NCBI RefSeq assembly: GCF_022045235.1
Contig: NW_027266267.1
Span: 17,422,001-17,486,000 of the forward strand
Direction: 5' to 3'
DNA: 64,000 bases
Origin: Haliotis cracherodii
Lineage: Eukaryota
The notes beneath the pieces are model-generated. The model had not been told where the DNA came from. It saw only the letters and a program-made list of their open reading frames with translations, and did no database searches. The position numbers and the translations under genes were made by a program. Numbering within the stretch: position 1 is the first letter of the stretch; every line of letters starts with the position of its first letter. Positions 37,701-64,000 of the stretch are shown here, piece by piece.

Positions 37701-38535
37701 ATGTGTGTACATACTTACTCTTCAGAAAGTAATATTTTCATTTTCATGTTTGGTTGTAGTACGATGTGTACAATGCTGTCAATACTAATCTGACAGTAAC
37801 ATACTGCAATACTGGACATTCAATACTATTATAACCGTTAACGGCTCAATTACCTTTCGTGTTCTCATAAATCTTCAGCTGTGAGTAATTTTGTTTATCT
37901 GGTGCCTTTTCCTCCAAACTTGTGTACTGAGCCGGACTGTTGACTGCATCTAAAAAAATACAGATTCTATCAGTTCTGAGAGACTGTGGTATAAGTGTGA
38001 GATCATTAGCAGTAATATTACCGACCACGTACCCAAGGAAGAATAGCCAATGTTGTCAATTTCTGTATCTTCAGCTCGACTGGTGCTGCAAACGTTGACA
38101 GGTCAGTTCATTAAAGTACATGTACATGTAGGACACGAGTTGTCCACATCATTTCAGTTAGGTTTAGATTTTAAAAGATCATCATTAACATTATTCCATC
38201 AATTTATATTTATCTATTTGTAGTTTTATCGCTGCTATATTGTGATTACTTCATAAGCATGGACTACTTCAGTTATTACTGTCGTCAGTTATGTCAAAAG
38301 GTGAACATTTTTGGCGACTCTGTCATGTTTTTGGAAGCAAAGTTTATTGATCCTCGCACGTACATAATCAAAAATTAATTTAGAATAACATATGGGGGTG
38401 AAACAGATATCTGCATTGTGTCTCTTAAACAGATCAGCACTAATCGAAACTGATATCAGAAGACACGCAGGAGAGAATCCCTATAAATCCATACAATATG
38501 AATTCATTTGGAATACCTTTTTTGTGATGCAGTTC
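34748..38535 (-). CDS. Gene C cytoplasmic exons (19, 53, 96, 111, 23 nt)
   Basis: GTASQK-STSRAEDTEIDNIGYSSL-DAVNSPAQYTSLEEKAPDKQNYSQLKIYENTK-EDAPADTSTFEGMAETPPVTYESINASPYQDSGGQPR-DADYGNI*. Confidence 0.86.
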
Positions 38536-38681
38536 CTGCAAAAGATGAAGAATGTCTACATTGTATTTAATAGTAAACACATGACGAATATATCGTATGT
38601 ATAGTGAACATGCTGCACAGGGAGATTATGAAAAGTAAAATGACAAAAGAGGAGTCAGAAGCAACCGTTTCTTTTACAAGT

Positions 38682-38716
<35 letters not shown>

Positions 38717-41700
38717 ATATATTTAACATCTCAGGACTGACGTATAGATGCATATATTTTGTTATTTATGATATTATATTGAAGTTAAGGTCAACTGACG
38801 TATCAGTTAGACCACACTAGGTATGCTGAGTAAGTAACATTATTCCACTTCAATACATAACACTGTTATTCGTCATTATATGCAGTGTCAATATAAAATG
38901 TTATTCTGACTGCAAACATGTTCTTAATACTGCGTCAATTTACTTACAGTTATACGGATAGTTTGTAACATACCTTTCATGGCATGTCCGAACCTGAAAC
39001 CCTTTCTGTAGAGGACCATCACAACAATTCCTTCAATGAACAAGGCAAGAAGCAGAGTTCCAACAGTTGATCCCACGATGTCCTCTGTACAAGTAGCATC
39101 GAGTTGCTGATGGTCTGTAGGATCTGCGTTATAAAAGTATAACGAGTGGTTGTCGTGTATTTACTGGTTTGCAGTAAATCGGTAAACATTACCACATTCA
39201 TTTTCCAACCCAAGTAAGCACATGTTGAACTTATTGATAATTGTTTATGCACTGCAGCTTTAAACTTTTTATATTCTACGATGAACCCGCAACGACAACA
39301 TATCACATAGCAAGGAAATGTTGACGCACCACAATACTTACTATAACTCATATATAAAACACTCAGTTTCTGAACCAGAGTCGATTATTTACAGGTTGCA
39401 GCCATATAAGTGAAATATTGTTGAGGGCAGTGCTATGCAACAAACAACAAATAGATAAACATGCTAATAAACACACAGACAAATATATATGTTGTTTAAA
39501 TAACATTGCCTGTGGCATTGTTTAGTGTGCCGTTAAAAAAAAAACCCAAACAGGCATGCTAAAAATAGGTATGTGTTGCTACAATACATATTTTTCTTCA
39601 TGTAATGTTGTTGATTATGAGAAATTGAGATCCCACGTCAGTGATAATTACCCCCAGGAGTCACAGTTTCCACAATGGCGAAAGATGAACTTTTAGACAA
39701 GGCATTTCTACTATGCAGACGGAAAAGGTGAATATCTCCTGACGTTAGGCCCGTCACTTCCACCACTTTCACCTTGCCAGTGTCATCATACGTGTTGTAC
39801 GCGGTCCACGTTCTTGTAACAAACTGAAGATATTCAAGCATGAAAGACTGGGGATGTCCACCATTGAACCCAGGTTGCCATGACAACCACACCGAAGACG
39901 TTGTTACATTTTCTAGAGATTTGAACTGTGTAGGTGTCCCCGGAGGCCCTATTAAAACAACGTAATACCATATGTTTGTTCTGAGAAACTCTGTATCAAG
40001 ATACTCACAGTGAACATCATGAAGTGAAAAGTCATACTTTCAGAACACACATAAAATGGTATATTGATAAAATAGGCTATAGTAGTAGTAATTATTAATA
40101 ATTGATTATATGAAAACTGAATGGACGAATAAGAATTGGATGTTCACCTTCGACCTTGAGACTGACAGTATATGCCACCGACCGGCCTACACGAGTGTCC
40201 ACTGTAAGACTGTAGTCCCCGAAGTCCTGCTGTTGGAGGTTAGTAAGGTGTAGTCTGGCAGTGACTGAGATGTCTGAGACAGGGCTGGAGGAACCAGTGA
40301 GGTCCTGGCTGGTGCTGGTGGTTCTACTCCAGGTGAATGTAGGAAGGGGGTAGGCCAGGACTGATACAGACACAGTGACGTTACCACCCAGTCTAGCGGC
40401 GTATTTGAGTTGCTGGGGAACTGATTCATCAAGTCGAGGGGGAACTGGTTAAATGTACAAGACAGACGGCAATTAATACACTTGCTTAAACTTATGTATA
40501 GATTCGAGAACAAATAATAAACTGTCCGCACGTGTACGAGTGAAAGAACATACTTAGATGATATCCCTATCGTCCTATCTAACACGAAACAAAACGAAAA
40601 GGTAGGCATTTCCTGTATATACGAGGACTGGTAAAAAAGTTCTAACAAACAAAACGAACAATTGTGAAAGTGTTTTTAATTGTATTTTTCAACTTTATCT
40701 CCCTGGCTTCAATACACTTCTCATATCGATAGTGAAGCTTTTCAATTCCAGTCAGGAAGCAGTTTTCTGAAGCCAACCTGACAAAAACATTCACGGCAGC
40801 TTTGAGGTCATCGTTGTCATCATAGCGCTTCCAACGAAGGTGTTCTAGTTGTTTATGAAACATGTGGCATTAACTGGTGCAAGGTCTGGTGAGCATGGAA
40901 ACTCTTCCAATCCACATTGTCACACAGCAGCCTTTGCAAGTCAAGAGGTGTGAGAAGAGGCATTGTCATGAAATAGTAGAACTCCAGCAGTCAGCCTTCC
41001 TCACTACTTTTCTTTGATTGAGTCTTTCAGGCCATGAAACAAGTCAGCATAGTAGTAATCGGTAATCGTCTTTTGACCGGTAATCAACAAGGATCACAAC
41101 ATTTGCATCCCAGAATACTGTGGCCATAACTTTCTTCACTGATTTTGAATTTCTTGGGTGCTGGAGAAGTGGAATGGGGCCATTTTGTGGATTGACGTTT
41201 TGAATTTGGATCAAAGTAGTAGACCCATGTCTCATCACCCGTGACTAATCTCTTTTTTAATGTGACGAAATCTTAAATTGTCTTAAGATCTGAATTAAGA
41301 AACGTTGGCACCCAATGGGCAAATATCTTATTCATCTGTATATGTTTATGAATAATAGTTTCAATGGATCCATAATAGTTTCAATGGATCCATGTCTGCC
41401 TCAAGTTCAGCAATGGAAACACGTCTAACTGACAGTATACGTTTTTCTATCTCCTTGATTGAATCTTCATTGATGGAGGTTAAGGGATGTCCAGATGTAG
41501 GGTCATCATCACGGCTTGTTCTCCCAGCCTTAAACATAGCTGCCCAACGTTTGACAGTGGAATATCTAGGGCACTTATCCCCATACACTTGTGACTTGCG
41601 GTCATGCATTTGAAGGAAAAACTTGATGACTGCTCGGTTATTTCCATTTGTGTGTCCATTTGGACACCTATCACGTTCAACAGACTGTCACTAACATACA

Positions 41701-44700
41701 CACGTCCTCAACAGACCAAATACACTTCCAAGAACTACCAAAACAATTTACTACAATGACTAGTTCATGTTGTTATGGTCAGGCTCAGAACCTTTTGACC
41801 AGCCATCGTAGTCATAGTTGCAATACGTTGTGAATATCACGTTTAGACAATGACGATGTGTCAGTGCCATGTGTCAAATAGATCGATTGTATACTTATGG
41901 TAACAATAATTGCTAGATTTGTATGCATTATAAACTATCAGTAGGAAGACAAGAAACGTTGGGACTTATGAATGACCTGAATCAGACTTTCTTAGCTCGG
42001 CAATGGTGCGGAACATAATCACGTAGTTCCAAGATTATCATCCCCAGCACTTTTGTGAGGTGCCCAGCTACCTAATTTTGGTATCCTTTTAAACGAGAGT
42101 TTGACATTTAAGTTGTGTATGCAGGAAACTTGATACCTGTTTTATTTATGCACTGCAGGATCAACAGTGGACAAAGAGCAACACAAATATACAAATATAT
42201 AATGTTTTCGTTTTAAAGCCTGACAAATTTAGTTAATGGCAATAATTACAACACTACCACACGTATCGGTGCGAACATCGGGTCGGCTGAGTGATTACTC
42301 ACAAATGACCAGCAACTCCACCCTCTGACTGACAGGTGCTCCGATGTTGTTAGTGGCAGTACAGGAGTAGTTCCCTCTTTGTCTACAGTCTGCTGACTCC
42401 AGTCTATATTCTGCTGTCAGGGAGTTATCTGCCCTTGTCAACTCCTCAGTTCCATTCAGTAACCTAATGATTGACCTTGGGTAACTATCAATCTGGCATC
42501 TCAAGGTCACTGTATCAGATTCGTTAACTGTCAATGTGCCGCTGAGTGAATTGGCGGTGAACATACTTATACTGGCCTGATCTGAAATTATAACTCATTA
42601 TTATATTACAGGGAGGGTATTGTCTGTATATTGGAGTTAACATGTGTGTGGATTAGTAAGAAAAGAAACATGAGTTCCATAACTGAATTCATCGCATGCA
42701 CTTCCACATGCTTTTAGTGTATTACATATTTCTAACATGTTGATCTATCTATATCTAGGATAATGAAACGAACTTTCCGGACGGACTTTTAAATTACAGT
42801 ACTAGCACTTGTTTAGATTTGTATATGACTAGTTTATACCTCGAGGGATCAATTTCATTTAATACTTGTGACTTCATGTTTACACTGACAGCCATACACC
42901 AACCACATGTAACGCAGAATAAAAAAGTTCATCAAAAGGATATGTTACATGAGCATATGTATGGTCAAATTGCAATACAGGAACAACTTTTGTACTTGAC
43001 ATCAAAATGTGTGGTGCCAATGGAAACGTCAACTCAGGATCAAAACAGCAATAAACAAAATGTGAAGTCTGACCCTCTGACACATTTCCATCACACTATG
43101 TCATTCATACATAAACATCCCTATTTTGCCTTTTACCCCCAGTGGAATCTGTTTCGGCATATAATCGAGAATGATCATCCTCTGGCGTTGCAGTATTGCA
43201 TTTATGAATCACTATTAAAAGCAATACATTCAGGAAAATAAGTAAACAATCTATTATTAAATCTTTCCTCTGCAATACATCGACATTGCGTTACGGTTGA
43301 GTGCAGTAAATGTATTATTGGAGGTTATCAAAGAAAAATAAACAGTGCATGTGGTAGCAAAAAACAGAAACTTTTGTTATCCTAGAGAAGTCAAACTAAG
43401 TTGTCTTTGAAGCACAATTTGAAAGTGCTTGACAGTTTGTTAGATATTATTTGATGTAGCATAAAGCCTGTCTCCATACATGGTTGGGAGCTTGTGCCAC
43501 TCGTCACGAGGCTTGTGAGCAATGTGGATTGCGTGCGAGTGAATTGTCTTTTGCTCTGCTTTAAACATTGATTCAGCTGTACCATGCTGTGACAAACACA
43601 CTGGTTTAAATAAAACTGACAGAAGCCGAATATGTCTGCATAGTAAATACGATTTATATATGTGTGTTATACATACTACTTGCCAACTAGCAAACTATGG
43701 AACTCTTCAGACCAGCTGTCCACACTATACCCAGCACTTGTAATTTAGCATGACAAACTGCTGGGTATGATAGATAATGCTTTCGGTAGCAATGATAACC
43801 TAGATAGTGGTGACACTTTAATTTACACGTAGAAGCATCTCGGAACTACAAATAGTGTTTCCTCAGCTTCTTATTTAAACAGACATACTGCCGCACACGC
43901 GTCATAATCCATTGTAAAGAAATGTGGCTTTGGAACCCTATGGCATCAATGGTTACTTGCTACTCACACTGCACATCCACATTGATCTGTGCTGTTGCTG
44001 TCCCCAGTTGTTGGGATCCCCCACTGGGTGTGAGCGTGTTGCTGGCAGTACAGGTGTAGTTTCCTCCCTGACTCCTGCTGATGCTGATTCGATCAAGTAC
44101 AGCCCCAGTACTGACAGTAGAACCACTATAGGTCCAGGTGTAGCTTGTTAATGGAGGGTTGCCTGGTGTGGTGTAGGTACTACAGTCTATCCTGAGGCTA
44201 GAGAACTCTGAGATATTCTGCACTGTTGGTAGTCCAAATATAGAAGGAGCATCTGAAAAATAGGAAAATTACAAATCCATAAGCGAAATTGAATAAACAT
44301 GTACATTTACTGGTTATTATCCAGTAAAACATGCATGACTCCTGACACTCTCCTATGTAAACTGTTATGGCATGATTTGTTCAACATACAATATATATAA
44401 TAATAACAAAAATAATAATTGTATTCATATATTTTGTACAATAATAACAACATATAACTTTTCTTTCAGAAGAAGGTGTCGCAATTACTCACACTGTACA
44501 TCCACATTGACTGAGGCCGAATCTAATCCCTGAGTGTTGCTGGCAGTACAGGTGTAGTTTCCTCCCTGACTCCTGCTGATGCTGATTCGATCAAGTACAG
44601 CCCCAGTACTGACAGTAGAACCACCATAGGTCCAGGTGTAGCTTGTTGTTGGAGGGTTGCCGGGTGTGGTGTAGGTACTACAGTCTATCCTGAGACGGGA

Positions 44701-45926
44701 TGACTTGACCACTGTGTAGGTGGAAGGCAGGCCAGATATTGATGGAACAGCTGAAAGAACATGGTGCAGGTACTACAGTCTATCCTGAGACGGGATGACT
44801 CGATCACTCGGTAGATGGACGGCAGGCCAGATATTGAGTGGACATCTGTTTGTTGGAATATTCATTTCATATGTTGTGTCTCATATGAATACAGTTCGAT
44901 CAGTTCCCACAACAATTTAACGGATCTTTCACTTGATGTTATACAATAATAACTGTTTACACATCACATGATACTTAAAGACATAAATTGGAGCCTTTGT
45001 TTTGCGATAAATGTCAAAAGAATGCTGAAGTAAACACCCCATATACATTTTAGAATTAATGAACGAATCAATTAATCAATAATCAATTAATGTGAGAAAT
45101 AGTAACAGAATGAGGGGTTTTATACCATATCAACTATTTAGAGCGATATTTACATACTCATATATGTCATTTGACGGAATCACCATGTGTATTATCGGAC
45201 ATGTTCGTTATAGGTGTTATAGGTGGAATACTGCTAAACCGTTTAGGTCGTTTATGATGTACATAGCGTATTTGGTTTGTTGGTTGGTTGGTTTGGTTTT
45301 AACGCCGCACTCAGCAATAATCCAGCTATATGACGGCGGTCTGTAAATAATCGAGTCTAGACCAGACAATCCAGTGATTGATATCATAAGCATGGATCCA
45401 CGCAATTGGGATCGATGACATGCATAAACCAAGTCAGCGAGCCTGACCACCTGATCCCCTTAGTCGGCTTTTACGACAAGCAAAGTCACCGTTTACGGCA
45501 AGCATGGGTTGCTGAAGACCTATTCTACCCCGGAATCTTTACGGGTCTTTGGTATTACATCATCCCCAATATATTGTTTTAAATGATGCATTTTACACGA
45601 CCATACTTAAAGCAGCATAAGACCATACTCACTCTCACTCGCCTTGGAAATATTCATGTGTTCACCATTCATGCAAATTTGTGAAACAGTGTGAACATTT
45701 GAAATTCGGAAGGCAGGCCTTCTCGAAATTATTGACATTTTAATTTGTCTTATTGGAAACATAGACACCAACAATTCCCCTTTCATTCAAGCATTTGATT
45801 TAGTAAAGCTGTGACTAATGGGATCGGGTGACCAGGGTCACTGACTTGTCATCGTATCAAGTATCGATGTTCATGATGTCAGTCACAGGATTGTCCGTTC
45901 CAGACTCGATCCTTGAATGCGACAGT

Positions 45927-45994
<68 letters not shown>

Positions 45995-47729
45995 ACGTAC
46001 ATTCATAATAACAAACTTGTCACCACAACAAAGGCAATGACATCCATGTGTCTGGTATCTAACACATGGTATTCCTGGCATAACTGGAGGTGACCCATTG
46101 ACTCTTCTATCCATAATAATGTCCATCATATACTTACACAACACAGAGGCAGTGACACTCACTTGTCCAGTACCTGACAACCCATTCACTTCACACCTGT
46201 ATGTCCCTGCATAGCTTGATGTCACGTGACTGGCAGGCAGCTGGATGTCCAGGGAGGAGGTGTAGTCACCAACAAACACGCCCTTGTTCTGCCAGGAGTC
46301 CAAGAACACAGCTGTCTGAGCAGGCACTGATCCACTGGCTATCAGCACTGCAGAGATGCCCTCCCCCTTCCTCCAGGTGTACCCGGTAACAACATCCCCC
46401 GGTGTCACAGTGTAGCTGCATCTCAGTCTCAGAGCCTGCTGGTTGGGTATCCCTGCACCTCCTGACCCGGATACTGTCACTGCTCCCTCAACACCTGGAA
46501 ATAAACGCGCAAAACAGGGACCATTCTAAAATATGACTTTTCCCGATGTTACTCTAGAGAGGATGCAAAATGCAAGTTGGGCTCCTCGCTGCCTTAAGCA
46601 GTATTTTAGTTATTTCAAGGCTACAAAGATCTGTGTGTGACAAGTCTCTGACGAGCACGGGTATGATGTTGACAAATCAAGATTCATAGTAAGAGCTTAT
46701 CCGGTTTATCTTCATTTTTTAACATTGTCCTTATAACAGCTNNNNNNNNNNNNNNNNNNNNNNNNNNNNNNNNNNNNNNNNNNNNNNNNNNNNNNNNNNN
46801 NNNNNNNNNNNNNNNNNNNNNNNNNNNNNNNNNNNNNNNNNNNNNNNNNNNNNNNNNNNNNNNNNNNNNNNNNNNNNNNGTTTGGGGATGGTAAATATCC
46901 TGCATTAGGAATAAACATTGCATTTAGCGAGCCTTGGCGACTAATAAAGTAAGCTACTCTAACCCTAGTCTATGAGACGTCTCGGCCACGGTCAGACGTT
47001 GTTGACAGTCGGCCTAACCTGTCATAACGTTAAGAAGTGTAGTCAGATGTACAAACAGCCTTAAAGCGAAACAGGGTAACAATTCAAACATATTTCGGCC
47101 AAATCCAAATATTTTAATTTGTGGAGCAAGCCGCAGAGGTCTACAAGCACAGATATGGCTACTGATCCCGCTTGGCTAGGCCTCATGCCCTCGCAAAATT
47201 GTGTCGAAATTTATATCTCCAAGTTACCAAAACATGCCTTAGCTACGTCACAGTAAGACACTGATTTTCAGTATATTGGACTGTTCTTTTGATAATGAAA
47301 GCAATTATCTCTGTAGTTTATCAAGATTCACGATTGTTAAATCTGACTCGATCGCCGAAAGACGAATGCGACAGTGAAAGTAGTCCCTACTTGACCTTTG
47401 ATATTTGCATCTCTATCCGCATATGACCCCAACGGATATCGTTTTTATCCCTTGGCTTTATCCTGCCGATAAACCTACCCATTATATGATAAATATATAT
47501 GTATATATATATACTACTTTACTGTAATATATACTCATATATATTCTGTGATAAATGGAATTAGCACATCACAGCTGCAATCTTTCCTTGATAATAGTAT
47601 GTAGTATATACAGAAAGAAATGCTAATTGCTGATACTTGTGCAGTGTTTCTTTTAATCTTAAAACCTGACATACCTTTCACGAGGCTAACTGCAAGCACA
47701 ATCGTTGCTGCTCTAGGAAGGGACGCCAT
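34748..47729 (-). CDS. Gene C: type I membrane IgSF receptor (signal, 5 Ig, FN3, TM, ITAM/ITIM tail), about 759 aa
   Basis: Exons 47675-47729, 46138-46494, 44493-44750, 43968-44252, 42303-42581, 40148-40444, 39652-39948, 38974-39123, 38517-38535, 38033-38085, 37854-37949, 36172-36282, 34748-34770 sum to 2280 nt, an open frame with all junctions GT-AG. Confidence 0.9.
35283..35431 (+). mobile_element. SINE family 1 copy
   Basis: Same family on the plus strand, with ACTC tail. Confidence 0.75.
35910..36080 (-). mobile_element. SINE family 1 copy with an expanded (GAGT)n tail
   Basis: Same family. Confidence 0.75.
36320..37702 (+). mobile_element. Degenerate Tc1-like transposon in a gene C intron
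   Basis: RAIGMLETG, GGGSVLVWG, FQDDNSR, GRITHY*; imperfect TIRs near 36320 and 37680-37702. Confidence 0.85.
38974..39123 (-). CDS. Gene C transmembrane exon (not in the ORF track)
   Basis: DPTDHQQLDATCTEDIVGSTVGTLLLALFIEGIVVMVLYRKGFRFGHAMK; homologous to the B and D TM exons. Confidence 0.88.
39652..39948 (-). CDS. Gene C fibronectin type III domain
   Basis: 297 nt; GPPGTP...VWLSWQPGFNGGHPQSFMLEY...VTGLTSG...FRLHSRNA. Confidence 0.9.
40148..40444 (-). CDS. Gene C Ig5 (cysteine-less I-set-like)
   Basis: 297 nt; VTVSVSVLAYPLPTFTW...DFGDYSLTV. Confidence 0.85.
40620..41810 (-). mobile_element. Degenerate mariner element in a gene C intron
   Basis: TIRs TACGAGGACTGGTAAAAAAGTTCT / AGAACCTTTTGACCAGCCATCGTA with TA ends; WVP, GDETWV, KVMATVFWD, HDNA and SPDLAP motifs. 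Confidence 0.92.
42303..42581 (-). CDS. Gene C Ig4
   Basis: 279 nt; VTLRCQIDSYP...GNYSCTATN. Confidence 0.88.
43968..44252 (-). CDS. Gene C Ig3 (near-duplicate of Ig2)
   Basis: 285 nt; core essentially identical to Ig2. Confidence 0.88.
44493..44750 (-). CDS. Gene C Ig2
   Basis: 258 nt; IDCSTYTTPGNPP..YTW...GGNYTCTASN. Confidence 0.88.
45275..45546 (-). mobile_element. SINE-like interspersed repeat, family 2
   Basis: TTTAACGCCGCACTCAGCAATA..CCAGCTATATGACGGCGGTCTGTAAATAATCG..GTCGCCT.TTACGACAAGC. Other copies at about 1510-1625, 2655-2856, 8945-9175, 12670-12815, 12980-13105, 18035-18282 and 62995-63231. Confidence 0.75.
45929..45996. repeat. (AC)n microsatellite
   Basis: Seen directly in the sequence. 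Confidence 0.95.
46138..46494 (-). CDS. Gene C Ig1 (V-set-like)
   Basis: 357 nt; LRLRCSY...YTWRK...YAGTYRCEV. Confidence 0.9.
47675..47729 (-). CDS. Gene C signal-peptide exon MASLPRAATIVLAVSLVK
   Basis: Phase-1 donor AG|GTATGT. A TTTTCAG acceptor about 13 nt upstream of the ATG implies a non-coding first exon. Confidence 0.78.
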
Positions 47730-48965
47730 TGACAGCAGTTTTCTGAAAAGGTAATACATTTTTTGCTAGAGAACACTACACATTCCCACGTAGAGACTTA
47801 CGTATTTTATTATGATCAGATACGTTCTAACCTGTGGCTTGCAAGAACTGAGACTATGCATGTGTATATTAATGAGTTATCTTCATAACTTCTTTAAGTG
47901 GCAGTTACATGTATCTCCAGGGTGTGACAGTGTAAAATAAGCGGATTCATCATTCTAATCATGTTTTTGTTTTCTCAGAACCATGCCTGTGCTCGTGTTG
48001 CTTATGTGGTACATTGTGACATATACATCAGCCAGAGTGGCTAGTTTCTTCTACTTGATGAAATATTTGCATATATAGTTTTTCAATCTGGTGTCCTGTG
48101 TGTAAGATGAACGTTCCTTATGATATCCATGCATCTAAGTATTGCTGAACGGATCAAGTGTATGAGTAGCTGATGATGAAGTCATGTTGGCTTCGGACGG
48201 GTATATACGAGAGGGAAATCCATTTGATGTATTTGTCATAGTGGACACCATAGGTTTCTTTAATATTTCATTTATCCAAAATACCTGATTGCTTCAATAT
48301 TTATTGCCAAAGTGCAATGACATTTGATCTCGCTTGCCTATTTAATGTATACAGCATACATTGTGCATATCGCCTCCGAACATAAGTCTCCTCCGTGCAG
48401 GACCCTTCATTCCCAGAGCTATTATAACTGTCAATTAACACCTCCTTAGGTCTCCGGATCTTACATATCTAAATGTACATGGGTCACACAGTTGCGGACA
48501 GATTGCACGGCTAGTCGCCGCATCACCACCAACAACGTCAACGATAATAAAAATCGCCGTTCAACTTGTAGTTAGGACAGAGCGGGTCTCCGCACCTAGA
48601 GCATTGTTCACTCGGGCCCGTGTGATTTCTGTCACGTGATTACTATAACTTTGTACCATTTCGACCTATTTCAAACTACAACAAAAGATTTGACTGTTGT
48701 TATCTCAAACATAACCCCTGAGTATTGTGTTACAACGTCCTTACTGATCTATCAAAGGAGTTATTGACTCAAATGACAGATCAATATTAGTTATTTATAG
48801 TACCTTCTTGTATGTGCTGTGTGGCGTGTTGAATATATATGTAAGCAGTTGCCAATGGGAAGCTAAGCAAATGTACACAAGTACATAAGTCTAGATTTTG
48901 TTAAACGTTGGTTAAACTATCAGAAATTATGTCTGTTTGGAGCATGACCAAACACATTGTCTCAC

Positions 48966-49095
48966 CTTTGTGTCAGGGCTGCTTTGTGTCAGGGCTGCTT
49001 TGTGTCAGGGCTGTCCGGCGTCGAATAACTTAACATGGGTTGTCAGGTCAGATATCATAATGTGTAGTTTCCTTCCTTGTTTATAAATACACCCG
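48966..49095 (-). promoter_or_regulatory. Candidate promoter and 5'UTR exon of gene C, containing a 3x16-bp repeat
   Basis: CGGGTGTATTTATA at 49082-49095; donor AAG|GTGAGA at 48965; CAGCCCTGACACAAAG x3 at 48966-49013. Confidence 0.5.
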
Positions 49096-49466
49096 AGTAA
49101 ACATTGAGGCCACAATCGCGTTGCAGTTTGAGTGATAGTATAATTTGTCGACAAAGGGACTGCAGATGAGGATCCAGTCTGTTATTGATGACGGGTTTAT
49201 TCCTGTTGTGTATGTATCAGTCAATCAATCAGTTTATTGTTTTTCAAGGCCATAGGACCCATATAACATACATATATATCACACAGTTATATTACATTGC
49301 ACATACATCTTGGTATTGGATAACATTAAATTTCCCTTCTAATTTTAAATACGATATACATATATATTGACAGATGAAATATATTCTCAAGTATTTTAGA
49401 ATCAATTATTAGCATCATACAGTGGGCTCGGTTGTTTGTTAAGACTTTGCAATGAGTATGTGCATC

Positions 49467-49579
49467 CCGGGTTCGACTCCCGACATGGGTACAATGTGTG
49501 AAGCCCATTTCTGGTGTCCCCCTGCCGTGGTATTGCTGGAATATTGCTAAAAGCGGCGTAAAACCATTCTCACTCACTC
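49467..49579 (+). mobile_element. 5'-truncated SINE family 1 copy
   Basis: B box GGTTCGACTCC plus body and tail. Confidence 0.75.
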
Positions 49580-52500
49580 AATATGCAAATACTACATCTT
49601 TGTCATCTCTGTATACGAACTTTCGAATGATTTGGGCAGAAGAATGTCGTGAACATAGCCTGTGTGTTCTATCAAAATGTATATTCAACTTGATGTTCAG
49701 TCGTGATGTCTTGTACCATATGTTCCTATTTTGTTCAGGTGAACAGTTGATTTTCGTTGCATGTGTTTGTGATCAGTGCCACCGGTTGTGCAGGATACGC
49801 TCACCTTTTAGCGAACACCTGATATCATACTATTTGATAGTGATTCATAAACACATGCCCATGATATAGACGGAAATGTGCAATCGACTGTGCTTGATTC
49901 AGAGATTTGTATTGTATGTGGAAAGGGTTTTGTTGCTTTAATTCATAAATGATTCTGTGTGCCAGAAACCTGTGGTCGTTGGTCATGACACCAGGTAACA
50001 CACGCCACTCACACAATGTTCTTGAAAAATAAGTGTTTGCTTGTTGCAATACAACTGCACGAGATGGCAATATTCAGCCACCATACTTTACACAGGAGGA
50101 GGCAGCCCAACGAATGCCATGCAAACTCTCAGATTTCACAACCCTGTGTTATTGTATCGTGCCCCAACCTTCAGGCGTCCGGTCCCTGTGCTGACTTGAA
50201 TACTCTCCAGATTGCCTTTTCTGTGCATATACAAAGACCAATACAAAACGCGATTAATCTGGTTCCTTGTCACCGACCTTAGCTTACAATATGCCCATAC
50301 AGGTGACTCGTTCGTGTTCAGAGCAACCACACGAGCATCAATGGCTTCACTCTCACAGTCAACATGGCATTCAAAAGACTGAATAGATAAGGGGCCAATT
50401 ATTAGTTGCAATATTCTGTCTCCTGCGATAGCCATTCGTTAAACATTATTCACAACATGTATGCATTAACAAATGGCTTGAAACTAGTTTACTATGACTA
50501 GACCTTTGTTATGCGAGGTAGGCAGTTCAATGAAGATATACAACATGACAAAACCATAAGATCCCTAAACGTGGTTGGTTGCCTGGACATTATTTTAAGC
50601 GTTTCTTGCTGAACCGGGGTTAAAAAATCATTTTGGAAACCCTAATGCCCACAAGTATGGGATGATCACACTGTCATTTTGAAACCTTGTAGATTCAGTA
50701 GTTTATTTGCGGTTGTGAACGAATATTCAGCATGGTGTTTCTAGATTGTTTCACATATCAAAGGGTGTCCACTGGAGAGTATAACAGCGCAACAGACTGA
50801 CGACATATTTTAGATAAATCTATCATCACAATGAAGCGGTGCAGCAGAAATTGATACATTCAACATGAAATAAAGTGTATATACATGAAATTAAAAGTGA
50901 ATTAATTCCTTTCACTGCCACCAGCGTGGAAGGATAGACCTACCTTTTGTTGAGCACCTGGTATTATCACTATTTGATAGTGATTTCTTTACATATGCTT
51001 ATGAGATACTCGTATACGTACAAGGATATTTTATGAAAAGTAACGTATTACTTTAATTCACTACAAAAGTGAATGGCAAACATCAATTAAACACTATTTA
51101 TTTATTGTGAATCATTGTTTATTTCCTGTAAGTATTGGATCCAAAACAAACAAGGCAATGAAGGTGCCTCTTTATAACCTATAGTAAGCAAAATATATAT
51201 TAAAATGCGATACTGAAGCATATACAACGTTAAGCCATGTCTATATGTCCTTATAAGTAAGGCTCAACGAGAATGAATACAACATGTATAAAATGTCAAC
51301 AGACAGCCGTTTCACTTTAGACCTGCACACCAAAACACCGAACTATCATATAGACCACTATATTATTTTGGAAAATCAAAGCTAATGGCAAACTTTGTCA
51401 TTCATTATGTAATTGCCTTTACTTCACATTTTGTGACATTTAAATATGTTATATCGACGAAACAACACGTTTTACGCTCAAATGATTGAACTATGTAAAT
51501 TTACAGTCGCGACAACACACTTGGCTGCTATTGCCGTAATGATCAGTCAGGTGTGTGTGTTTATGGAGCCCACAGGGTGTTAAATAGCATAACCTGGGCT
51601 CACAGACATGTTTGTATAACAAGCAATCTGATCAATAGCTCAAGATCGGGGACGATTATCGCCGGTATCAGTCTTGATAACTTTAGGAAGTTGATCCCTG
51701 TAGATCAGCCAGTGGCCACGCTGGACAAGCACAAATGGAGTATGATGTAGTGTGGTCATATGAAAGTATGACATTGAAATGTTAATTTTGGTAGGCTAGC
51801 TCTTCTTGCAGGATCTCATTACAGGCTATAAGTGAAATCTTACAATGTTTTAAGCACTAAATAGGACCGCTATAAACGGTGAAAAATTTGGCTTTTGGAG
51901 ATCATTCATAGTCAATCTCCTCGCATGTGTTCATCTGCTAAACAGGTAATGACTCAACTTTTTGTAAACAAAGTTATGAAAAGGGGACACAGAAATTTAG
52001 TACTATAAAGTTTGTGTCAGTCACGTAATCCCATGCAAGTGTTGGGGATATAACAATATGTTGTGCTATTTAAGAAATAAACGACGAGAGTGAGTGCAGT
52101 GCAGGGAGAAGAAACCATGATGGGTGCAGTGTTTTATCTTATGATAAACAACGACCACGAATTATTATCGTTTATTTCGTAAATTTGATATCGATATTAT
52201 GCACAGCCTCTCGAAGAGTGATGATAAAATTGTGCAACTTTAAAATATGTTTACACGTATTTTAATAATGATGACTCCAACAATAAAATCCGACCACGGC
52301 CATGTCGCTCATGTCCATGTTATGCACAGGTCGGTAGTTCTCGTATATTCTTGCAATCGTAAAATTGATTATCTTTACCTTTTTCCAAAAAACGATTGTC
52401 ACGCTTTTGGGTGCCATCGTTGGGCGATCGGGTTTTTCTGCATTGCCAATCTTCATCCATGGGGCACAAATCACTAGACACTCCCCTCCCATCAAGTGGT

Positions 52501-52763
52501 GAGCGCATGCTCGAATGTCCAGAAATGACGTCATATTATAACAATGTGTTTATCATGTAATACACTACTCTTTGTTCTTCATTGTCGTTTTTTTTTTTTT
52601 GGCGTAGCTATCTTATATATGTCAATATAATGCAAAGCAATAATATATTGAATGATAAAGGCAACAGTCATATGTTACTATATACTATATGAAAGGTAAA
52701 CATAATTTTCAGTTCACGCTCTGTGTTTTTCCCTCCAGTGATATCTTCACATCTACTTCTTGT

Positions 52764-53655
52764 TTACTTGTTCCCATAGTCAGGATCTGAAACTGCATCT
52801 CATGGAATGAAGACCCGGAAACTAATTTCAAAGTTGTCAAACGATGACAGGGTAAACGTGTTGTACACCAGGACACAAGAGGGTGGGATTTTGAAACTTA
52901 AATTACTTCTGGTATACAATATATAATGCAAGATTTTAATTCTTTTCAGGGGTATAAATATTCTGAATAATGGTTACCTCGAGATTGACCGCCGCTATTC
53001 TGATATGGAGATGCGTTGATAGACTCTGGAGGAGCTTCTGTCATGTCTTCGTAGGTACTGGGCTCGACTGAAAATGTGATTCGTAACACATTTGCAAAGA
53101 ACAAATTCAAATGTTACACATCCTTTTAAACGTAACACAAAGATGAATAGCACACCGATGATCTTTCAGTACCTTCACTGAGTTTATCGATTGAGAACTG
53201 CTATAGTATATAGAACATCAAAGTATCCATCTACCGTTTGTATTTTCATAAATCTTCAACTGTGTGTAATGTTGTTTTTCCGATGCCTCTTTATCGCCTG
53301 GGTACTCAGCTGGACTGTTGACGTGATCTGGAACGAATCCATATGAACATACAATAACGGTGTTAGGGCGAAGTAGAAACAGTCATATTTGTGAACAAAA
53401 CAATCTATCTGACGAACATTGCTGACTTCAACTTACCCAAGGATGAATATCCTATGTTTTCCATTTCTTCTATTTCGGTATTCCTTGTGCTACAAATGTA
53501 AAGTAAGGTCCGTGTATGGCATTTTATAATGGATAGGAACATCTTCAATGTATGATTTGTTTTGTGATTTTAGAGGACATCTACCTTATTACAAAATAAA
53601 TTATTTTAAAACGTATTATTCATACATTTAGTCTACCTTTTTTGTGAAGCAGTTC
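52764..53655 (-). CDS. Gene B cytoplasmic exons (19, 53, 93, 90, 23 nt)
   Basis: GTASQK-STRNTEIEEMENIGYSSL-DHVNSPAEYPGDKEASEKQHYTQLKIYENTN-VEPSTYEDMTEAPPESINASPYQNSGGQSR-DPDYGNK*. Confidence 0.88.
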
Positions 53656-56600
53656 CTGCAAAGAAGAGAATGCATTACATAGTACCCTGTAATACACACA
53701 TTAAACATGTTGCAAAGGGATAATATGATATGTGAAACCTTAATGACTTAATACAAGAAACATCGACAATTTGTGCTATTATTAATTCCATATACATTCC
53801 CGAACTGTATGTTCTCATTCTGGGTCAGTGATGATTTTGATTCGTACGTAACTTTGACGCATATTATTCATGTATCTACTGAAGGCACACTGAAATGAAA
53901 TATCGCCACATCATGTTTTCACTCAACTTGCAATACTGTTGAAAGGTAAACATGAGATTTAACAACATACCTTTCATGATGTTTCCAAACCTGAACCCCT
54001 TCCTATAGAGGACAATAAGAACTAGTCCTTCAATCAGCAAGGTAAGAAGAAGGGTTCCTATCGTACTTCCTGCTATTACACCTGTGATGTTATATTCGGC
54101 ATTGAGTGGTTGCTGTTTCTTTGGACCTGCAGTATAAAATGAGTATTTTATGAAATTAGTATTGACTTCTCTTTTACTGAACACAGATTTTTGTATTTTG
54201 ATCATGTGATGAGCTTGATAAAGGTGTCATTTACATCAAACAGGCTTTATACTTCAAACTTTCTGAATGAGGGGGAGTTACCAATTGTACCTATCAATCC
54301 CTCCAGAAACAGATAAAGGTACTCACAGCTGACATTGAATGCCCTGACATCAGAGAGGTTGTATCCTCCATACAGCCATGCCCCCTGACACTGACACTGC
54401 TGACTGTTCTGACTCCTGCTGACAATGAAGGAGAGAGTAGATGTCCTGGTCTGACCACTGTCACTGACCGATGCTGATCCAGTGCCGGGACAGGACCACG
54501 TGATAGTAGCTAGAGGATTTCCTCCTGTCACCGTGCAGCTGATTGTCTCTGGGTCTCCTTCAAACATTAGAGTCTGAAATTTTGTGATGGAAGGAGGGGC
54601 CGGCGGTGGGTCTGAAAAAGGAACAGCCATGATAGTAACTATACACAGAAATGCATAAAGCAGTGGAGAACATGACACTATCTGGAACATTTTACAAACT
54701 GGCTTAGTTAGTGTTATCCACAACAAAAAGAAGTTATTTCATCAAACAGTGTCCACTATACATGAAAGAGTCGGTGGTTATATTATCTTTATATATCACT
54801 TTGCTCGCTCCCTATGTTTACAATGATATACAACCTTCACATGTGCTTCAAATGAAAATCTGAACTGCTCTTAACAAACTGGGCACACTAATGAACTCTC
54901 ACACTTGACATCCAGTGATGCAGAACCAGTCTCGGTTGCTTTGGTGTTTCTGACTCTACACCTCACAGCGGTCTTGTCTTTATTTGGCCTGAAGGTGAGG
55001 GTCTGTGACCACCATGTAGAAGATCCTGTCACAGACCCCGTGGTGCCCCCTACAGGTGTTCCATCAATGTAGTCCCAGGTGAAGGTCAGGTTGGGATAAG
55101 CGGTGACAGTACAGGTCAAGGTCAGGTTTCTGTTCTCTAAGGCTACAGTGTTGTCTGGCTTTGTCACATCCACCTGCTCTGGTCCGATTGTAATACAGAA
55201 CAGTTACCTTTGACATCAATGTTATCTTAACCTCTCACTGCATTTGTAGTACTGCTTTGACAACATGTCATATCCGATATAGTATGATTTGAACCTACAT
55301 GAACACCTACGTCAATTACTATTCATCGTAGTTCAGTCTCATGAAGGAGTTGATCTCGCTGTCTAACTGACGAAAATACTCACTTTTCACCTATGATATT
55401 TTGTCTTGAGTGCCATATTACTGGATTGACTAAATGACTCCCTGACTGCAAACAACTGTATCCTCCCAGTGCGACAATAAGGCAATGGCATGTATAGAAC
55501 AGTAGTTATTGACTGATTGACTGATATCACATGAATGACATACGAATGTGTGACAACAGAGAGTTACTCACACCACACTCCCACCCGGGCACTGTCAGAC
55601 TGTACTGGGGAGGGGGTGTGGATGTTGGTGGCTCTACAGTAGACTTTGTGGCCCAGGTCACTCCTGACAGGGATAATGGTCACGGTACTTGTTGTCTGGA
55701 CAACACCTGATTGGGATGTGTGACCATTGGATATCCCACTTGCCAACGGAACACTGTTCTTGAACCACGTGACAGTAGCAGCAGGGTAACTGGAAGAGGT
55801 CACACAGGTCAAGGTCAAGGGTTGACCCTCAGCAGCTCCTACTTCCTGGTTGGCGGATGTGATGTTTGTGAGAGACACGCTGCTGACAGCAACTGCATAG
55901 AAATTGATTTAATCACAACTAGTGTATATATCTGTCATATTCAATAACGTAATGTCGAAGGCATAAAGGTAACTATCTACAATATTTATGATGTGGAGGG
56001 AACATTGCTATTATATTACTTACTGTCAGGATAGGAATACGTGGAGTTGACACTTGTCTGTGTGTTGGATGCCTGGCAGTAGTACAGGGAGTTCCTACTG
56101 GTGCCTGTCAGCTGGTAGTTGATGGTGGCTGTCCAGCCAGTGTCTCCCTCCACTGCTACTGGGCTGGTGGCCACACTCATCCCGTCTCTGTACAGCGTCA
56201 TGGACGGCGGTGGATTGGAGACAGCAGCACAGGATATAGACATTGTAGTTCTTGTTATGGTAACATTGCTCAGAGGAACTGAAATAATAACATAGTTTTA
56301 TAAAGTGTTGGTATCTATTTAAGACGACGGTGGGTTGGAGACTAGTGCATGTGAGACTGATTTCGGGAACTGAAATATCAACATAGTTTTATGAAGTATT
56401 GTAATGAGTTGGAGAAACAGGTGATATATGTTGTAGGTCTAGTCATGGTAACAATGTTCCGGGAACTGACATAATAACATTATCTTTGGTGTATCTATGT
56501 AGGATGGTGGGGCAAAACTGCAATATCAGTGGTTAATATTGGGAAAGGGAGGTCAGTCTAATTTCAAACGGGAGCTATCTCCGTTGTTTTCGTATTTGCG

Positions 56601-59600
56601 AGCAATGGCGTCACCGACGCTGTACTTTGTTGGTCCAGCTATTAAATGCCCAGCTTATCCCTACGGTAAAACGTATTCTTAATTAAATGTTTAAATGCAT
56701 TATATTTATGTTTCCATCCGTACACCTTCTGAGATTGGTTTAGTGCTGATAACCATTTTCCAAAATGTGGGCCCACATCTTTTCCGTCATCTTTGGTGAT
56801 CGAAACAAGTGGGCCCACATTTGTATTTCGCCTAGCTTCGTTAGGTTGTTTCGTTAGTTCTGATAATCAATCCCTAAATGTGGGCAGACGTTCTTTCGTC
56901 ATATTGCTTGCAACAGGAGGGACCACATTTATTAATCGCGAAATTCTACTTAAATATTGATAATCATGGGCCTACATTGTTCCCGTCATATATGGTGATC
57001 GAAACAAGTGGGCCAATATTTGAATATCGCCTAGTGGGTAGACGTTCTTCCGTCATAGTGCAACAGGAGGGACAACATTTAAAAATCGCTCAGCTTTATT
57101 AGCTTGGCTTACTTATAACCATTTTTAAAAAATGTGGGCCCACATTGTTCCCGTCTTATAGTGATCGAAACAGGTGGGCCCACATTTGTAAATCGCTGGG
57201 TTTCATTGGGTTGACAAAGTCATTTCAACTAGTGGGCTCACATTTGTCATTACTTTTCATGGGTATGTGACATTTTTTATTATTCATATTTTGTAGTGGA
57301 AAATGAAGGAAAGAGTAGATGTCCTGGTCTAACCTGGGACGAAATTATTTCCCCTAACGTCGGAAGGCACAACAAAGGGAGGTAACCTGGTTTCGTAATG
57401 GGTATATAAGTACAAGCGGAAAGTTGAAACTTCATTCTCAGGTGCGGTGCAGTCGAGGCTGGCTATATCAAACATGTTCGGTTATCTATGCTGCCGATTG
57501 AAGTACACATCGGTTGAATCTAAATTTGTTATTATTTGTGTGTGAAGTAGATGCAGCTGTCCATATGATGATCAGGATGTTATGCGTTGCTTGCAAGTTG
57601 TGCTGGCGAGCCATGATAATACGTTGTGAGATGGATCAGTGTCCATAGTTAAAATCTGGAACAGTTGGTTGCGAGAGTATGGATTTGGGATATACTCTGA
57701 TGAGTATTCGCTGACGAGCCATAAGAATACGTGATAAGGCGTCGATGCCTGTGTATATGTATACGTTGCAAATATGAAGCATAGAATATATTCATGTAAA
57801 TTACAGTTGGTTGGTTGATGGTCATGATGCTGGTGATGCAGCCGATGTTCATGATAATGTGAATACTTGTTGAAGAATAAACTGCGGTCAGTCAGTGCAT
57901 CGTACAGTATCCCAAAATGTTGTAGTTGTGTATTTTGTTGTGTTAAGGGGGAGAAGGAGGAGAAGTTCGTAATGCGGGTTCGTTTACATAGACATATTCT
58001 CAACAACAAGTGCGTTTAGTTTCCAATATGGGCCCACCTATGATTTTTCGATTAGGCAAACGGAGTTAGCTCCCTTCTCGAACCACCGATAATGCGGTTT
58101 CACCGATGGTGGTGATGGTCACCTGACATACTAACCTGATACATCCATTTGTAAATGGTTACTCCCTGCATACTGATAGTCATACTGTGGTTTAAGCAAA
58201 CGTCCACAAAACATAGCTACCTGATACATGCATTTGTATCGGGTTACTCTAAACATAATGAAAGACATACTGTGGTTTAAGCAAACATGAACCCACTTAA
58301 CTGATACATCCATTTGTATCAGGTTACTCTCTGCATATTGAAAGTCATACTGTAGTTTAAGCAAACATCCACAGAACATACTTACCTAATACATTCATTT
58401 GTATCGGGTTACTCTATACATTCTGAAATTCATACTGTGGTTTAAGCAAACATCCACAGAACATAGCTACCTGATACATCCATTTGTATCGCGTTACTCT
58501 ATACATACGGAAAGTCATACTGTGCTTTAAGCAAACATTCACAGAACATAGCTACCTGATACATCCATTTGTATCGCGTTACTCTGTACATACGGAAAGT
58601 CATACTGTGGTTTAAGCAAACATCCGCAGAACATACTTACCTAATACTTCCATTTGTATCGGGTTACTCTATGCATACTGAAAGTCATACTGTGGTTTAA
58701 GCCAACATCCACAGAACACGGTTACTGATACATCCATTTGTATCGGGTGACTCTATACATACTGAAAGTCATACTGTGGTTTAAGCAAACATCCGCAGAA
58801 CATAGCTACCTGATACATCCATTTGTATAAGGTTACTCTATACATACTGAAAGTCATACTGTGGTTTAAGCCAACATCCACAGAACACGGTTACTGATAC
58901 ATCCATTTGTATCGGGTGACTCTATACATACTGAAAGTCATACTGTGGTTTAAGCAAACATCCGCAGAACATAGCTACCTGATACATCCATTTGTATAAG
59001 GTTACTCTATACATACGGAAAGTCATACTGTGGTTTAAGCAAACATCCCCAGAAGACGGTTACTGATACATCCGTTTGTATCGGGTTACTCTATACATAC
59101 TGAAAGTCATACTGTGGTTTAAGCAAACATACACAGAACATACTTACATAATACATCCATGTGTATCGGGTTACTCACTGCATATTGATAGTCATACTGT
59201 GGTTAAAGCAAACATCCACAGAACATACTTACCTAATGCATCCATTTGTATCGGGTTACTCTATACATACTGAAAGTCATACCGAAGTTTAAACAAACAT
59301 CAATAGAACATAGTTACCTAGCACACTTATGTTTAGTTGGTTGCTTTGTCTGCCACCAAACTGATAATCACATCTCCAGCTGAGTGTGTCTCTGCCGTAT
59401 ACGGCGTTGTTGATGGTGAGGGTGTAGTTGGTGGAGCTGGGGCAGGAGGTGGTGTAATCAGTTTGGACAGATGGGGAGGTGGAGCTGCAGCTACCCTGGC
59501 TATTTCTGTAGAATGTAGTTCCATTCTGCCACTGTATAGCTGTATGTGAAGCTTCTCCTGTGTAACACATCAGAGTACAGCTTCCCCCTTCCAGCACAGA

Positions 59601-63327: not shown

Positions 63328-64000
63328 TTACTTATTGTCATGGTCAGTACCTGAAAAGTATAGAACTACATGTAAGTAAACACAGATTATATGACAGGTT
63401 TTATATCACTCACAATAACATGACATGCTAAACGTGTCACATTAGGATTGAAAAGAAGACATATGCTTCGGTTTAATGCTTCTGTACATGCCCACAGTTT
63501 GCCCATGGCAATGACATACGATTCCAACCAGCAAGAGTGTTTCATGTTTTGGTTACCTTGAAAATGTGCTCCAGTGTTCTGGTATGGAGATGGTTTGATG
63601 GACTCATAGGTCACAGGGGGAGTCTCTGTGATGCCTTCATAGGTGCTTGCAACAGCTGCAGCATCCGCTGAAGATATAATTCATTACGTATTACAACAAC
63701 AAATCCGAATCACAACTCCCTTCTTCTAACTAGCACTTCAATATTACCTACACTGGAATGCTTAAACTTAAACAGTATTGGGGAAAAATGCAAAATCTAT
63801 ATCAACCTTTTGTATTCTCATAAATCTTCAACTGTGAATACGGTTGTTTTTCTGATTCCTCCAAATTTGAATACTGGACTGGTCCATTTATTTGATCTGA
63901 AACAAAACAATGTGAAAATATTGTATTGATTTTAGTGCAAAACAGTTCCATATATAATGGTAATTTCAACAAAAGGGAAACACCCAGTACCTTGTACATA
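63328..64000 (-). CDS. Gene A (partial): 3' cytoplasmic-tail exons of an IgSF receptor paralog with two ITAM-spaced tyrosine pairs
   Basis: Exons 63807-63896 (DQINGPVQYSNLEESEKQPYSQLKIYENTK), 63557-63667 (ADAAAVASTYEGITETPPVTYESIKPSPYQNTGAHFQ) and 63328-63350 (GTDHDNK*), all AG/GT bounded with phase-1 junctions and homologous to the tails of B-D. A possible end of the preceding exon lies at 63984-64000 (YKVL, positionally equivalent to YSSL). The rest of the gene is beyond the window. Confidence 0.88.

What the first reader, a model, noticed from the sequence alone, without database searches (positions are those of the whole stretch)
38974..54126. Acidic residue in the TM helix, GxxxG motifs and a free juxtamembrane cysteine
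Seen: B (LLIEGLV) and C (LFIEGIV) have Glu in mid-TM, while D has Gly at the same position (LLIGGLV). All three have GSxxG, and B and D have tandem GxxxGxxxG. Each has an apparently unpaired stalk Cys: a junction codon giving CPxK in B and D, and DATC in C. Established: ITAM subunits such as CD3, DAP12 and FcR-gamma use an acidic TM residue to pair with a basic-TM partner, and several are disulfide-linked dimers. Inference: these proteins may be signalling subunits of multi-chain receptors, with D uncoupled from the partner.
Basis: partly seen in the sequence, partly recalled or inferred. Interest (0 to 1): 0.72.

Follow-up and report, generated by a model that had tools for sequence, protein, structure and literature searches.

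The report
Abalone receptors toggle a membrane charge
Abalone carry a cluster of dozens of antibody-fold receptor genes whose membrane anchor has switched again and again between a charged glutamate and an uncharged residue, which likely tunes how the receptors cluster rather than making them CD3-like signalling subunits.

Summary
Genes B and C have Glu inside the transmembrane helix, D has Gly there, and the GxxxG motifs and odd stalk cysteines are real. B, C and D belong to an abalone family of at least 49 multi-Ig receptor genes sharing one TM-plus-tail module. They have large ectodomains and their own tyrosine tails. The Glu is not conserved (E 20, G 22, V 5, S 2 of 49) and does not track ITAMs (7 of 18 Glu, 16 of 25 non-Glu). 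B has Glu and no ITAM; gene A has Gly and three. The Glu lies two turns below the DAP12 Asp and lacks the DxxxT Thr. No family member has a TM Lys or Arg; five have His. What is unusual is the toggling: at least five Glu/non-Glu switches between invariant neighbours, and Glu/Gly twins with near-identical tails in sister species. Most likely the Glu is an optional polar contact that tunes assembly of disulfide/GxxxG dimers. That mechanism is inferred, not shown.

The parts
52764..60448 (-). Gene B: signal, V-like Ig, 4 Ig, TM (Glu), tyrosine tail without canonical ITAM; equals RefSeq model P0002 (660 aa)
53971..54126 (-). Gene B stalk+TM exon; Gly at 54082-54080, 54070-54068, 54058-54056 (GxxxGxxxG)
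54029..54031 (-). Gene B TM Glu codon GAA
54125..54327 (-). Gene B split Cys codon (T at 54327 + GT at 54126-54125) across a 200-nt intron
   Evidence: spliced joint in 4 of 4 runs laid
54327..54611 (-). Gene B Ig5 exon, four Cys (the junction Cys is the fifth)
52978..53655 (-). Gene B tail exons 53655-53637, 53489-53437, 53327-53235, 53067 to about 52978; YSSL, YTQL, YEN, YEDM; a last small exon lies near 52793-52764
36164..47729 (-). Gene C: signal, V-like Ig, 4 Ig, FN3, TM (Glu), tail with one canonical ITAM (two if spacing 9 is allowed); matches RefSeq model P0043
38974..39123 (-). Gene C stalk+TM exon; Cys 39091-39089, GxxxG at 39073-39071 and 39061-39059
   Evidence: spliced joints in 3 probable RNA runs
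39032..39034 (-). Gene C TM Glu codon GAA; read as Gly in C-like spliced contigs of X1, X2, X4 and in two C-like H. rufescens models
39652..39948 (-). Gene C FN3 exon (no Cys)
42385..42387 (-). Gene C Ig4 extra Cys whose usual junction partner is Phe: second apparently free Cys
37854..38085 (-). Gene C tail exons carrying the ITAM YSSL-x8-YTSL, split by an intron
18980..25373 (-). Gene D: V-like Ig, split Ig2, 3 Ig, TM (Gly), tail without ITAM; signal exon not found
20210..20365 (-). Gene D stalk+TM exon; Gly codon GGG 20270-20268; junction Cys with T at 20683
63550..63896 (-). Last tail exons of gene A; its TM exon lies just beyond the window and has Gly at the site; tail has three canonical ITAMs

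Best explanation
These genes encode multi-Ig receptors with their own tyrosine tails, in an abalone family whose transmembrane Glu has switched to and from Gly, Val or Ser many times, and the Glu likely acts as an optional polar contact that tunes how predicted disulfide- and GxxxG-linked dimers assemble with each other.

Shown: gene structure, family size, the residue states, the repeated switches, and no link between Glu and ITAM.

Inferred:
(1) The invariant GxxxG and the stalk Cys make constitutive dimers.
(2) The Glu ends an i+4 stripe of small polar residues (Ser/Thr -12, Thr/Gly -8, Thr -4) and hydrogen-bonds to a neighbouring helix of the same family.
(3) Duplication followed by a one-base change (GAA/GAG to GGA/GGG) yields twin receptors with similar ectodomain and tail but different clustering, signalling threshold or surface export.
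(4) Tails signal through Src/Syk-type kinases, as reported for oyster CgIgR.
For: - 49 TM exons in the genome; E 20, G 22, V 5, S 2.
- Gly -13, Leu -3, Gly +1 and Arg +9 are invariant in 48 of 48; Gly -9 in 47; Thr -4 in 46 (broken L044 left out).
- On a 47-row DNA tree built without the site codon: 5 Glu/non-Glu changes (4-6 in 300 bootstrap trees); a single Glu clade is rejected, p-AU 1e-63.
- The codon's second base changes 8 times, against 0-3 at every other second base from -17 to +10, and against mean 3.6, maximum 7 at 36 mostly fourfold sites (Poisson P about 0.03).
- Glu/Gly twins: P0021/P0031, 88% identical; H. rufescens C-like P0022 (Glu) beside P0045 and P0046 (Gly), P0046 being 92% identical to P0022; mucin-type P0049 (Glu) versus P0015 (Gly).
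- Both states occur in the Ig5 class (6 Glu, 6 Gly of 12) and the FN3 class (8 Glu, 13 other of 21), and in all four Haliotis species seen.
- 39 of 47 have a stalk Cys.
Against: - No dimer, oligomer or partner is shown.
- The rate excess is modest: 8 of 111 third positions also reach 8 changes. Parsimony counts can be inflated by gene conversion, which the exon shuffling in this cluster makes likely.
- Glu members lack the stalk Cys more often (6 of 19 versus 2 of 28), so the two features do not act as one unit.
- Only 4 independent Glu/non-Glu pairs exist on well-supported branches, too few to test any correlation.
- Function, ligand and tissue are unknown.
Confidence: 0.45

Rival explanations
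1. The Glu forms recruit an unrelated membrane partner, and the Gly forms are partner-independent. The partner could be a basic-TM chain as with CD3/DAP12, or an adaptor bound through a polar face as with CD16A or CD300C.
For: The Glu is inside the helix. [quoted passage not shown] The lower-half position matches CD16A's. The family TM aligns weakly with DAP12's (E 0.048), with DAP12's Thr on the conserved Thr -4.
Against: Large ectodomains and own tyrosine tails. ITAMs in 7 of 18 Glu and 16 of 25 non-Glu members. No i+4 Thr/Ser in 47 (motif from PMC13107469 section 2.1.2). The Glu aligns to DAP12 Ala, 8 residues below its Asp, and integrin alpha-X scores better. No Lys/Arg TM among 47 family members. 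Twins keep the same tail, unlike CD300A/C.
Confidence: 0.25
2. The site is merely tolerant: Glu, Gly, Val and Ser are all workable, and the mosaic comes from drift plus gene conversion among tandem copies.
For: All changes but one are single-base changes at codon position 2. No correlation with ITAM. The rate excess is only P about 0.03. The cluster shows exon shuffling and broken copies (L013, L044).
Against: The neighbours from -5 to +1 barely change. Burying a Glu is costly (established knowledge), yet it is kept in 20 of 49 genes and in four species. Glu is coded GAG in the four copies nested among GGG genes and GAA elsewhere, which fits separate origins or losses.
Confidence: 0.22
3. Glu members pair inside the membrane with the family's own His members, giving heterodimers with two different ectodomains.
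For: Five paralogues (L032, L037, L038, L042, L046) have His at +4, one turn from the Glu and on a similar face; none of the five has Glu. His can replace Arg in CD89 assembly (PMC13107469, passage) and counts as the basic residue in some CHIR-AB (PMC10764270, passages).
Against: The His arose once, in one clade, while Glu is widespread. No His form was among the other species' proteins examined. His lies only 5 residues from the cytoplasmic Arg.
Confidence: 0.07
4. The Gly seen in C-like transcripts comes from A-to-I RNA editing of the Glu codon.
For: Spliced contigs in X1, X2 and X4 read GGA or GGG where the window and the DNA-like run X18 (same organism code as X1) read GAA.
Against: Genome-derived H. 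rufescens models P0045 and P0046 encode Gly in C-like copies. No partner helix stands out near the site (duplex -21 kcal/mol, among the weakest of 13 windows). The changed A has a 5' G, disfavoured by ADAR (recalled).
Confidence: 0.01

Closest known systems
Oyster CgIgR (PMC6994640, passages read)
   Same: Mollusc type I receptor with five Ig domains, one TM and its own ITAM; reported to dimerise and recruit Syk.
   Different: Described as a single gene. No sequence link to this TM/tail module was found. The passages read say nothing of a TM charge.
Hydractinia Alr family (bioRxiv 2022.03.04.482883, passages read)
   Same: Clustered invertebrate IgSF family (41 loci) with V- and I-set domains, an Fn3-like fold, exon shuffling, and ITAM or ITIM tails in some members.
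   Different: 1-3 Ig domains. No homology in the TM/tail detected here. No charged TM residue appeared in the passages read.
Botryllus fester co-receptors, FcoR (PMC12582321, passages read)
   Same: Diverse clustered type I Ig receptors with tyrosine motifs and intergenic recombination.
   Different: They have a Sushi domain and are gene-paired with tailless Fester proteins; 'charged' occurs 0 times in the main text. No such gene-paired partner was seen here.
CD300C/CD300A and CD16A (PMC12447643, PMC13107469, passages read)
   Same: Ligand-binding Ig chains with an acidic TM residue; CD300C has a neutral-TM twin; CD16A's Asp is in the lower half.
   Different: CD300C has a short tail without ITAMs and relies on FcR-gamma, and CD16A assembles with gamma or zeta dimers. 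The abalone twins keep full, near-identical tyrosine tails, and the switch recurs many times.
CD3, DAP12, FcR-gamma signalling modules (PMC1440944, PMC13107469, passages read)
   Same: Acidic TM residue, stalk Cys, tyrosine motifs; weak TM likeness to DAP12 (E 0.048).
   Different: There the acidic pair is required, central or in the upper third, mostly with Thr one turn below, and the ectodomain is small (recalled). Here it is dispensable across the family, two turns deeper, without that Thr, on large ectodomains.

Membership tests
CD3/DAP12/FcR-gamma-type ITAM signalling subunit | Acidic residue inside the TM helix | tested here: met
   B and C: Glu in predicted helix; D: Gly
CD3/DAP12/FcR-gamma-type ITAM signalling subunit | Acidic residue conserved across the family | tested here: not met
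   Glu in 20 of 49; at least 5 switches
CD3/DAP12/FcR-gamma-type ITAM signalling subunit | Acidic residue central or in the upper third, with Thr/Ser one turn below (DxxxT; zeta is an exception) | tested here: not met
   0 of 47 with Thr/Ser at +4; 8 residues below the DAP12 Asp; motif
CD3/DAP12/FcR-gamma-type ITAM signalling subunit | Canonical ITAM in the tail | tested here: inconclusive
   C yes; B and D no; A three; 7 of 18 Glu members; no PF02189 hit in P0002, P0043, P0029
CD3/DAP12/FcR-gamma-type ITAM signalling subunit | Small ectodomain (none or one Ig; recalled) | tested here: not met
   5 Ig or 5 Ig + FN3 in B, C, D; the mucin subgroup has 1-2 Ig-like domains
CD3/DAP12/FcR-gamma-type ITAM signalling subunit | Disulfide-linked or stable dimer | not testable with these tools
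   Odd Cys by count only; 39 of 47 have a stalk Cys
CD3/DAP12/FcR-gamma-type ITAM signalling subunit | A ligand-binding partner with TM Lys/Arg | tested here: inconclusive
   0 of 47 family members; unrelated genes could not be screened
Vertebrate-style paired receptors (CD300, CHIR) | Near-identical ectodomains with charged versus neutral TM | tested here: met
   P0021/P0031 88%, P0022/P0046 92%, P0018/P0029 82% identical
Vertebrate-style paired receptors (CD300, CHIR) | Charged form has short tail, neutral form has ITIM tail | tested here: not met
   Twins keep full, similar tails
Invertebrate clustered IgSF receptors with tyrosine motifs (Alr, FcoR, CgIgR kind) | Type I protein with tandem Ig, optional FN3, single TM | tested here: met
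Invertebrate clustered IgSF receptors with tyrosine motifs (Alr, FcoR, CgIgR kind) | Tandem multigene cluster with shuffling and pseudogenes | tested here: met
   46 TM exons on C4 12.4-17.9 Mb and 3 on C38; shuffled ectodomains
Invertebrate clustered IgSF receptors with tyrosine motifs (Alr, FcoR, CgIgR kind) | ITAM/ITIM-type motifs in some tails | tested here: met
   23 of 43 scored tails have a canonical ITAM
Invertebrate clustered IgSF receptors with tyrosine motifs (Alr, FcoR, CgIgR kind) | Immune or allorecognition function, Syk recruitment | not testable with these tools
   No tissue or functional data; analogy to PMC6994640 only

The most novel reading that the evidence does not exclude
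Abalone have independently evolved intramembrane charge-controlled receptor assembly. A one-base Glu/Gly switch, re-made repeatedly and kept under diversifying selection, turns each duplicated Ig receptor into a partner-coupled or a free form, possibly with the family's His paralogues as the counter-charge. This would be a paired-receptor system outside chordates built on an acidic rather than a basic residue.
Probability: 0.2. Interest if true: 0.82.

Novelty: new variant of a known kind. Interest (0 to 1): 0.55.

Why it matters
Assembly of immune receptors through charged residues in the membrane is described from vertebrates in the papers read here. A mollusc family that repeatedly gains and loses such a residue, leaving natural Glu/Gly twins with matched ectodomains and tails, gives ready-made test pairs for whether this control arose separately in invertebrates. 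The cluster is also a large, loosely annotated candidate immune or allorecognition locus in a farmed genus: RefSeq names its members hemicentin-, nephrin-, turtle- or CD22-like. If the toggle is neutral, the value drops to an undescribed receptor cluster.

Tried and rejected
- Complex prediction of two copies of B residues 508-566: no verdict (score 0.02); not used for or against binding.
- Full-length fold of B: mean pLDDT 52.8, TM region under 50, no use for disulfides.
- Sequencing-run search: no RNA holder listed; only joints and letters of laid contigs are used.
- ESM Atlas on the TM+tail: best score 0.81, a lead at most.
- PF11628 and PF02189 searches of the genome found nothing, but their controls rang nowhere, so they say nothing.
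- Searches with the tail exon and with the two most divergent TM exons gave no new locus with a basic TM.
- RNA editing rejected.
- A helix ending before the Glu rejected: it scores lower (2.01 versus 2.42 in B, 1.53 versus 2.40 in C) and leaves eight apolar residues outside.
- Fisher tests (ITAM p 0.13, Cys p 0.047) ignore kinship and are descriptive only; independent pairs are too few.
- One search checked that ITAM hits lie in true exons; its cut was too early for L010 and gave 6 of 18, so 7 of 18 is used.
- D's signal exon was sought and not found.
- Four look-ups of earlier findings returned nothing.
- No fold search was run.
Full report
What the window holds. It lies at G000:C4:17,422,001-17,486,000. 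Gene B's TM and tail are 100% identical to a RefSeq protein labelled Haliotis cracherodii on a contig of the same length. Four related genes lie in tandem on the minus strand. B (60448-52764) has a signal peptide, a V-like Ig, four more Ig domains, TM and tail. C (47729-36164) has five Ig and an FN3. D (25373 to about 18980) resembles B in its membrane-proximal part. Only the tail of A is in the window. Spliced contigs from related organisms join B's and C's TM exons to their neighbours at the predicted points (the runs' RNA status is the tool's guess).

The observation. Glu codons lie at 54031-54029 (B) and 39034-39032 (C), and Gly at 20270-20268 (D). GSxxG is in all three and GxxxGxxxG in B and D. 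The CPxK cysteine is a split TGT codon, supported by joints in 4 of 4 runs laid on B. It is the fifth Cys of Ig5, so one is free by count; which one is inferred. C has the DATC Cys and a second odd Cys in Ig4. The Glu is inside the predicted helix and 9 residues before the invariant Arg, so it lies in the cytoplasmic half.

The family. The TM exon finds 49 places: 46 on C4 between 12.4 and 17.9 Mb, and 3 on C38 (a lower bound; C38 copies could be haplotypes). All 49 were read. The site is Glu in 20, Gly in 22, Val in 5 and Ser in 2. Around it the helix is nearly fixed: Gly -13, Leu -3, Gly +1 and Arg +9 in 48 of 48, Gly -9 in 47, Thr -4 in 46 (broken L044 left out). The same TM-plus-tail module sits under Ig5-type, FN3-type, mucin-stalk and FN3-less ectodomains. 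Three protein searches gave only Haliotis hits. A profile search of 1.84 billion representatives gave 15 hits; the 11 strongest are family members, labelled Haliotis. The other four are weak or repetitive, and the two with a TM (P0038, P0040) have no charged residue at the site. So the module is not detected outside the genus, within the limits of a 51-residue query.

Tails. A has three canonical ITAMs, C one, B and D none. Of 43 scorable tails (L013, L037, L041, L044, L045, L047 left out as broken or unparsed), 7 of 18 Glu and 16 of 25 non-Glu members have an ITAM. A stalk Cys is in 13 of 19 Glu and 26 of 28 non-Glu members. So Glu, ITAM and Cys do not travel together.

Toggling. On a DNA tree of 47 members built without the site codon (L044 and L045 left out), Glu/non-Glu changes 5 times (4-6 in 300 bootstrap trees; shuffled labels 15). 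A single Glu clade is rejected. The codon's second base changes 8 times, more than any of 36 mostly fourfold sites (mean 3.6, maximum 7; P about 0.03), though 8 of 111 third positions reach 8. With 19 TM segments from three other species the count is 10 on a weaker protein tree. Gene C's own lineage switches too. H. rufescens has C-like models with Glu (P0022) and Gly (P0045, P0046) on a contig of the same length. C-like spliced contigs in X1, X2 and X4 read Gly, while the DNA-like run X18 reads Glu. Editing is not needed to explain this. The root is not known, so gain and loss cannot be told apart.

How it most likely works. The fixed GxxxG and the usual stalk Cys suggest constitutive dimers (inferred; GxxxG is common in TM helices, PMC1440944). 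The Glu ends an i+4 stripe of Ser/Thr, Thr/Gly and Thr beside the glycines. A buried carboxylate can hydrogen-bond to a neighbouring helix (established knowledge, recalled). I therefore think the Glu is an optional assembly contact among family chains that changes clustering, signalling threshold or export, and that duplication plus a one-base change keeps producing Glu/Gly twins (0.45).

Comparison. These are not CD3/DAP12/FcR-gamma-type subunits: conservation, DxxxT, depth and ectodomain size fail. They may still work like CD16A or CD300C, ligand-binding chains with an acidic TM residue. In kind they belong with clustered invertebrate IgSF receptors bearing tyrosine motifs: Hydractinia Alr, Botryllus FcoR and oyster CgIgR.

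Literature seen. Passages only of PMC12447643, PMC12582321, PMC6994640, PMC1440944, PMC10764270 and bioRxiv 2022.03.04.482883; passages plus section 2.1.2 of PMC13107469. No supplements were read; the CgIgR, Alr and FcoR TM sequences may be in supplements and could bear on whether a charged TM is already known in invertebrates. Four searches aimed at an abalone or invertebrate family of this kind listed no paper on it, judged from the listings of a partial library.

Verdict. Observation confirmed; interpretation partly supported. The real feature is an apparently undescribed abalone Ig-receptor cluster with a recurrently switched intramembrane Glu. It is a new variant of a known kind, with an untested mechanism. 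Interest 0.55.

Noticed in passing
window 55189-55188: The acceptor of B's Ig4 exon reads AA, not AG, in the window. Contigs of related organisms splice at exactly this point in 4 of 4 runs, and RefSeq includes the exon. It may be a private mutation, an assembly error or a GT-AA intron.
   Followed up: partly
window 25065-25064 and 24134-23465: D's V exon ends at a GC donor, its Ig2 is split by a phase-0 intron, and no signal exon was found; RefSeq models only D's TM and tail, fused to a transposase piece (P0032).
   Followed up: partly
L032, L037, L038, L042, L046: One clade has His at +4 of the TM, lacks Glu, and lacks the FN3 exon; L046 carries a gene-A-type V domain.
   Followed up: partly
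L010, L011, L012, L014, L016 (C4 12.41-12.56 Mb): Subgroup with a mucin-like stalk and one or two unusual Ig-like domains on the same TM/tail; all five have Glu and a Cys just before the helix.
   Followed up: partly
stalk position -19 in all TM exons: The juxtamembrane position toggles too (Cys, Met, Thr, Tyr, Ile; 10 changes at codon position 2); 13 of 47 members have two stalk Cys, many as CxC.
   Followed up: partly
window 40444-40148: C's fifth Ig domain has no cysteine at all.
   Followed up: no
window 44845-44770; also upstream of L046 and L040, L042: Partial tandem copies of the 5' end of an Ig exon precede the real exon (one in C, five near L046), giving possible decoy acceptors.
   Followed up: no
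L013, L044, L033: Broken family copies: stop codons in L013's tail and L044's TM exon; a stop in an Ig exon of L033. L013 also has a second Glu in place of Gly -9.
   Followed up: no
tail exon c3 in nearly all members: The motif Y-x-x-L-K-I-Y-E-N is almost invariant, with two tyrosines six apart; YEN fits a Grb2-type site (recalled).
   Followed up: no
window 31100-32340, 36700-37480, 40640-41700, 27300-28000: Tc1/mariner-like transposase remnants between and inside the genes (judged from ORF translations).
   Followed up: no
window 58100-59330 and 4900-7100: Tandem repeat arrays, one in B's second intron and one near the window's start.
   Followed up: no
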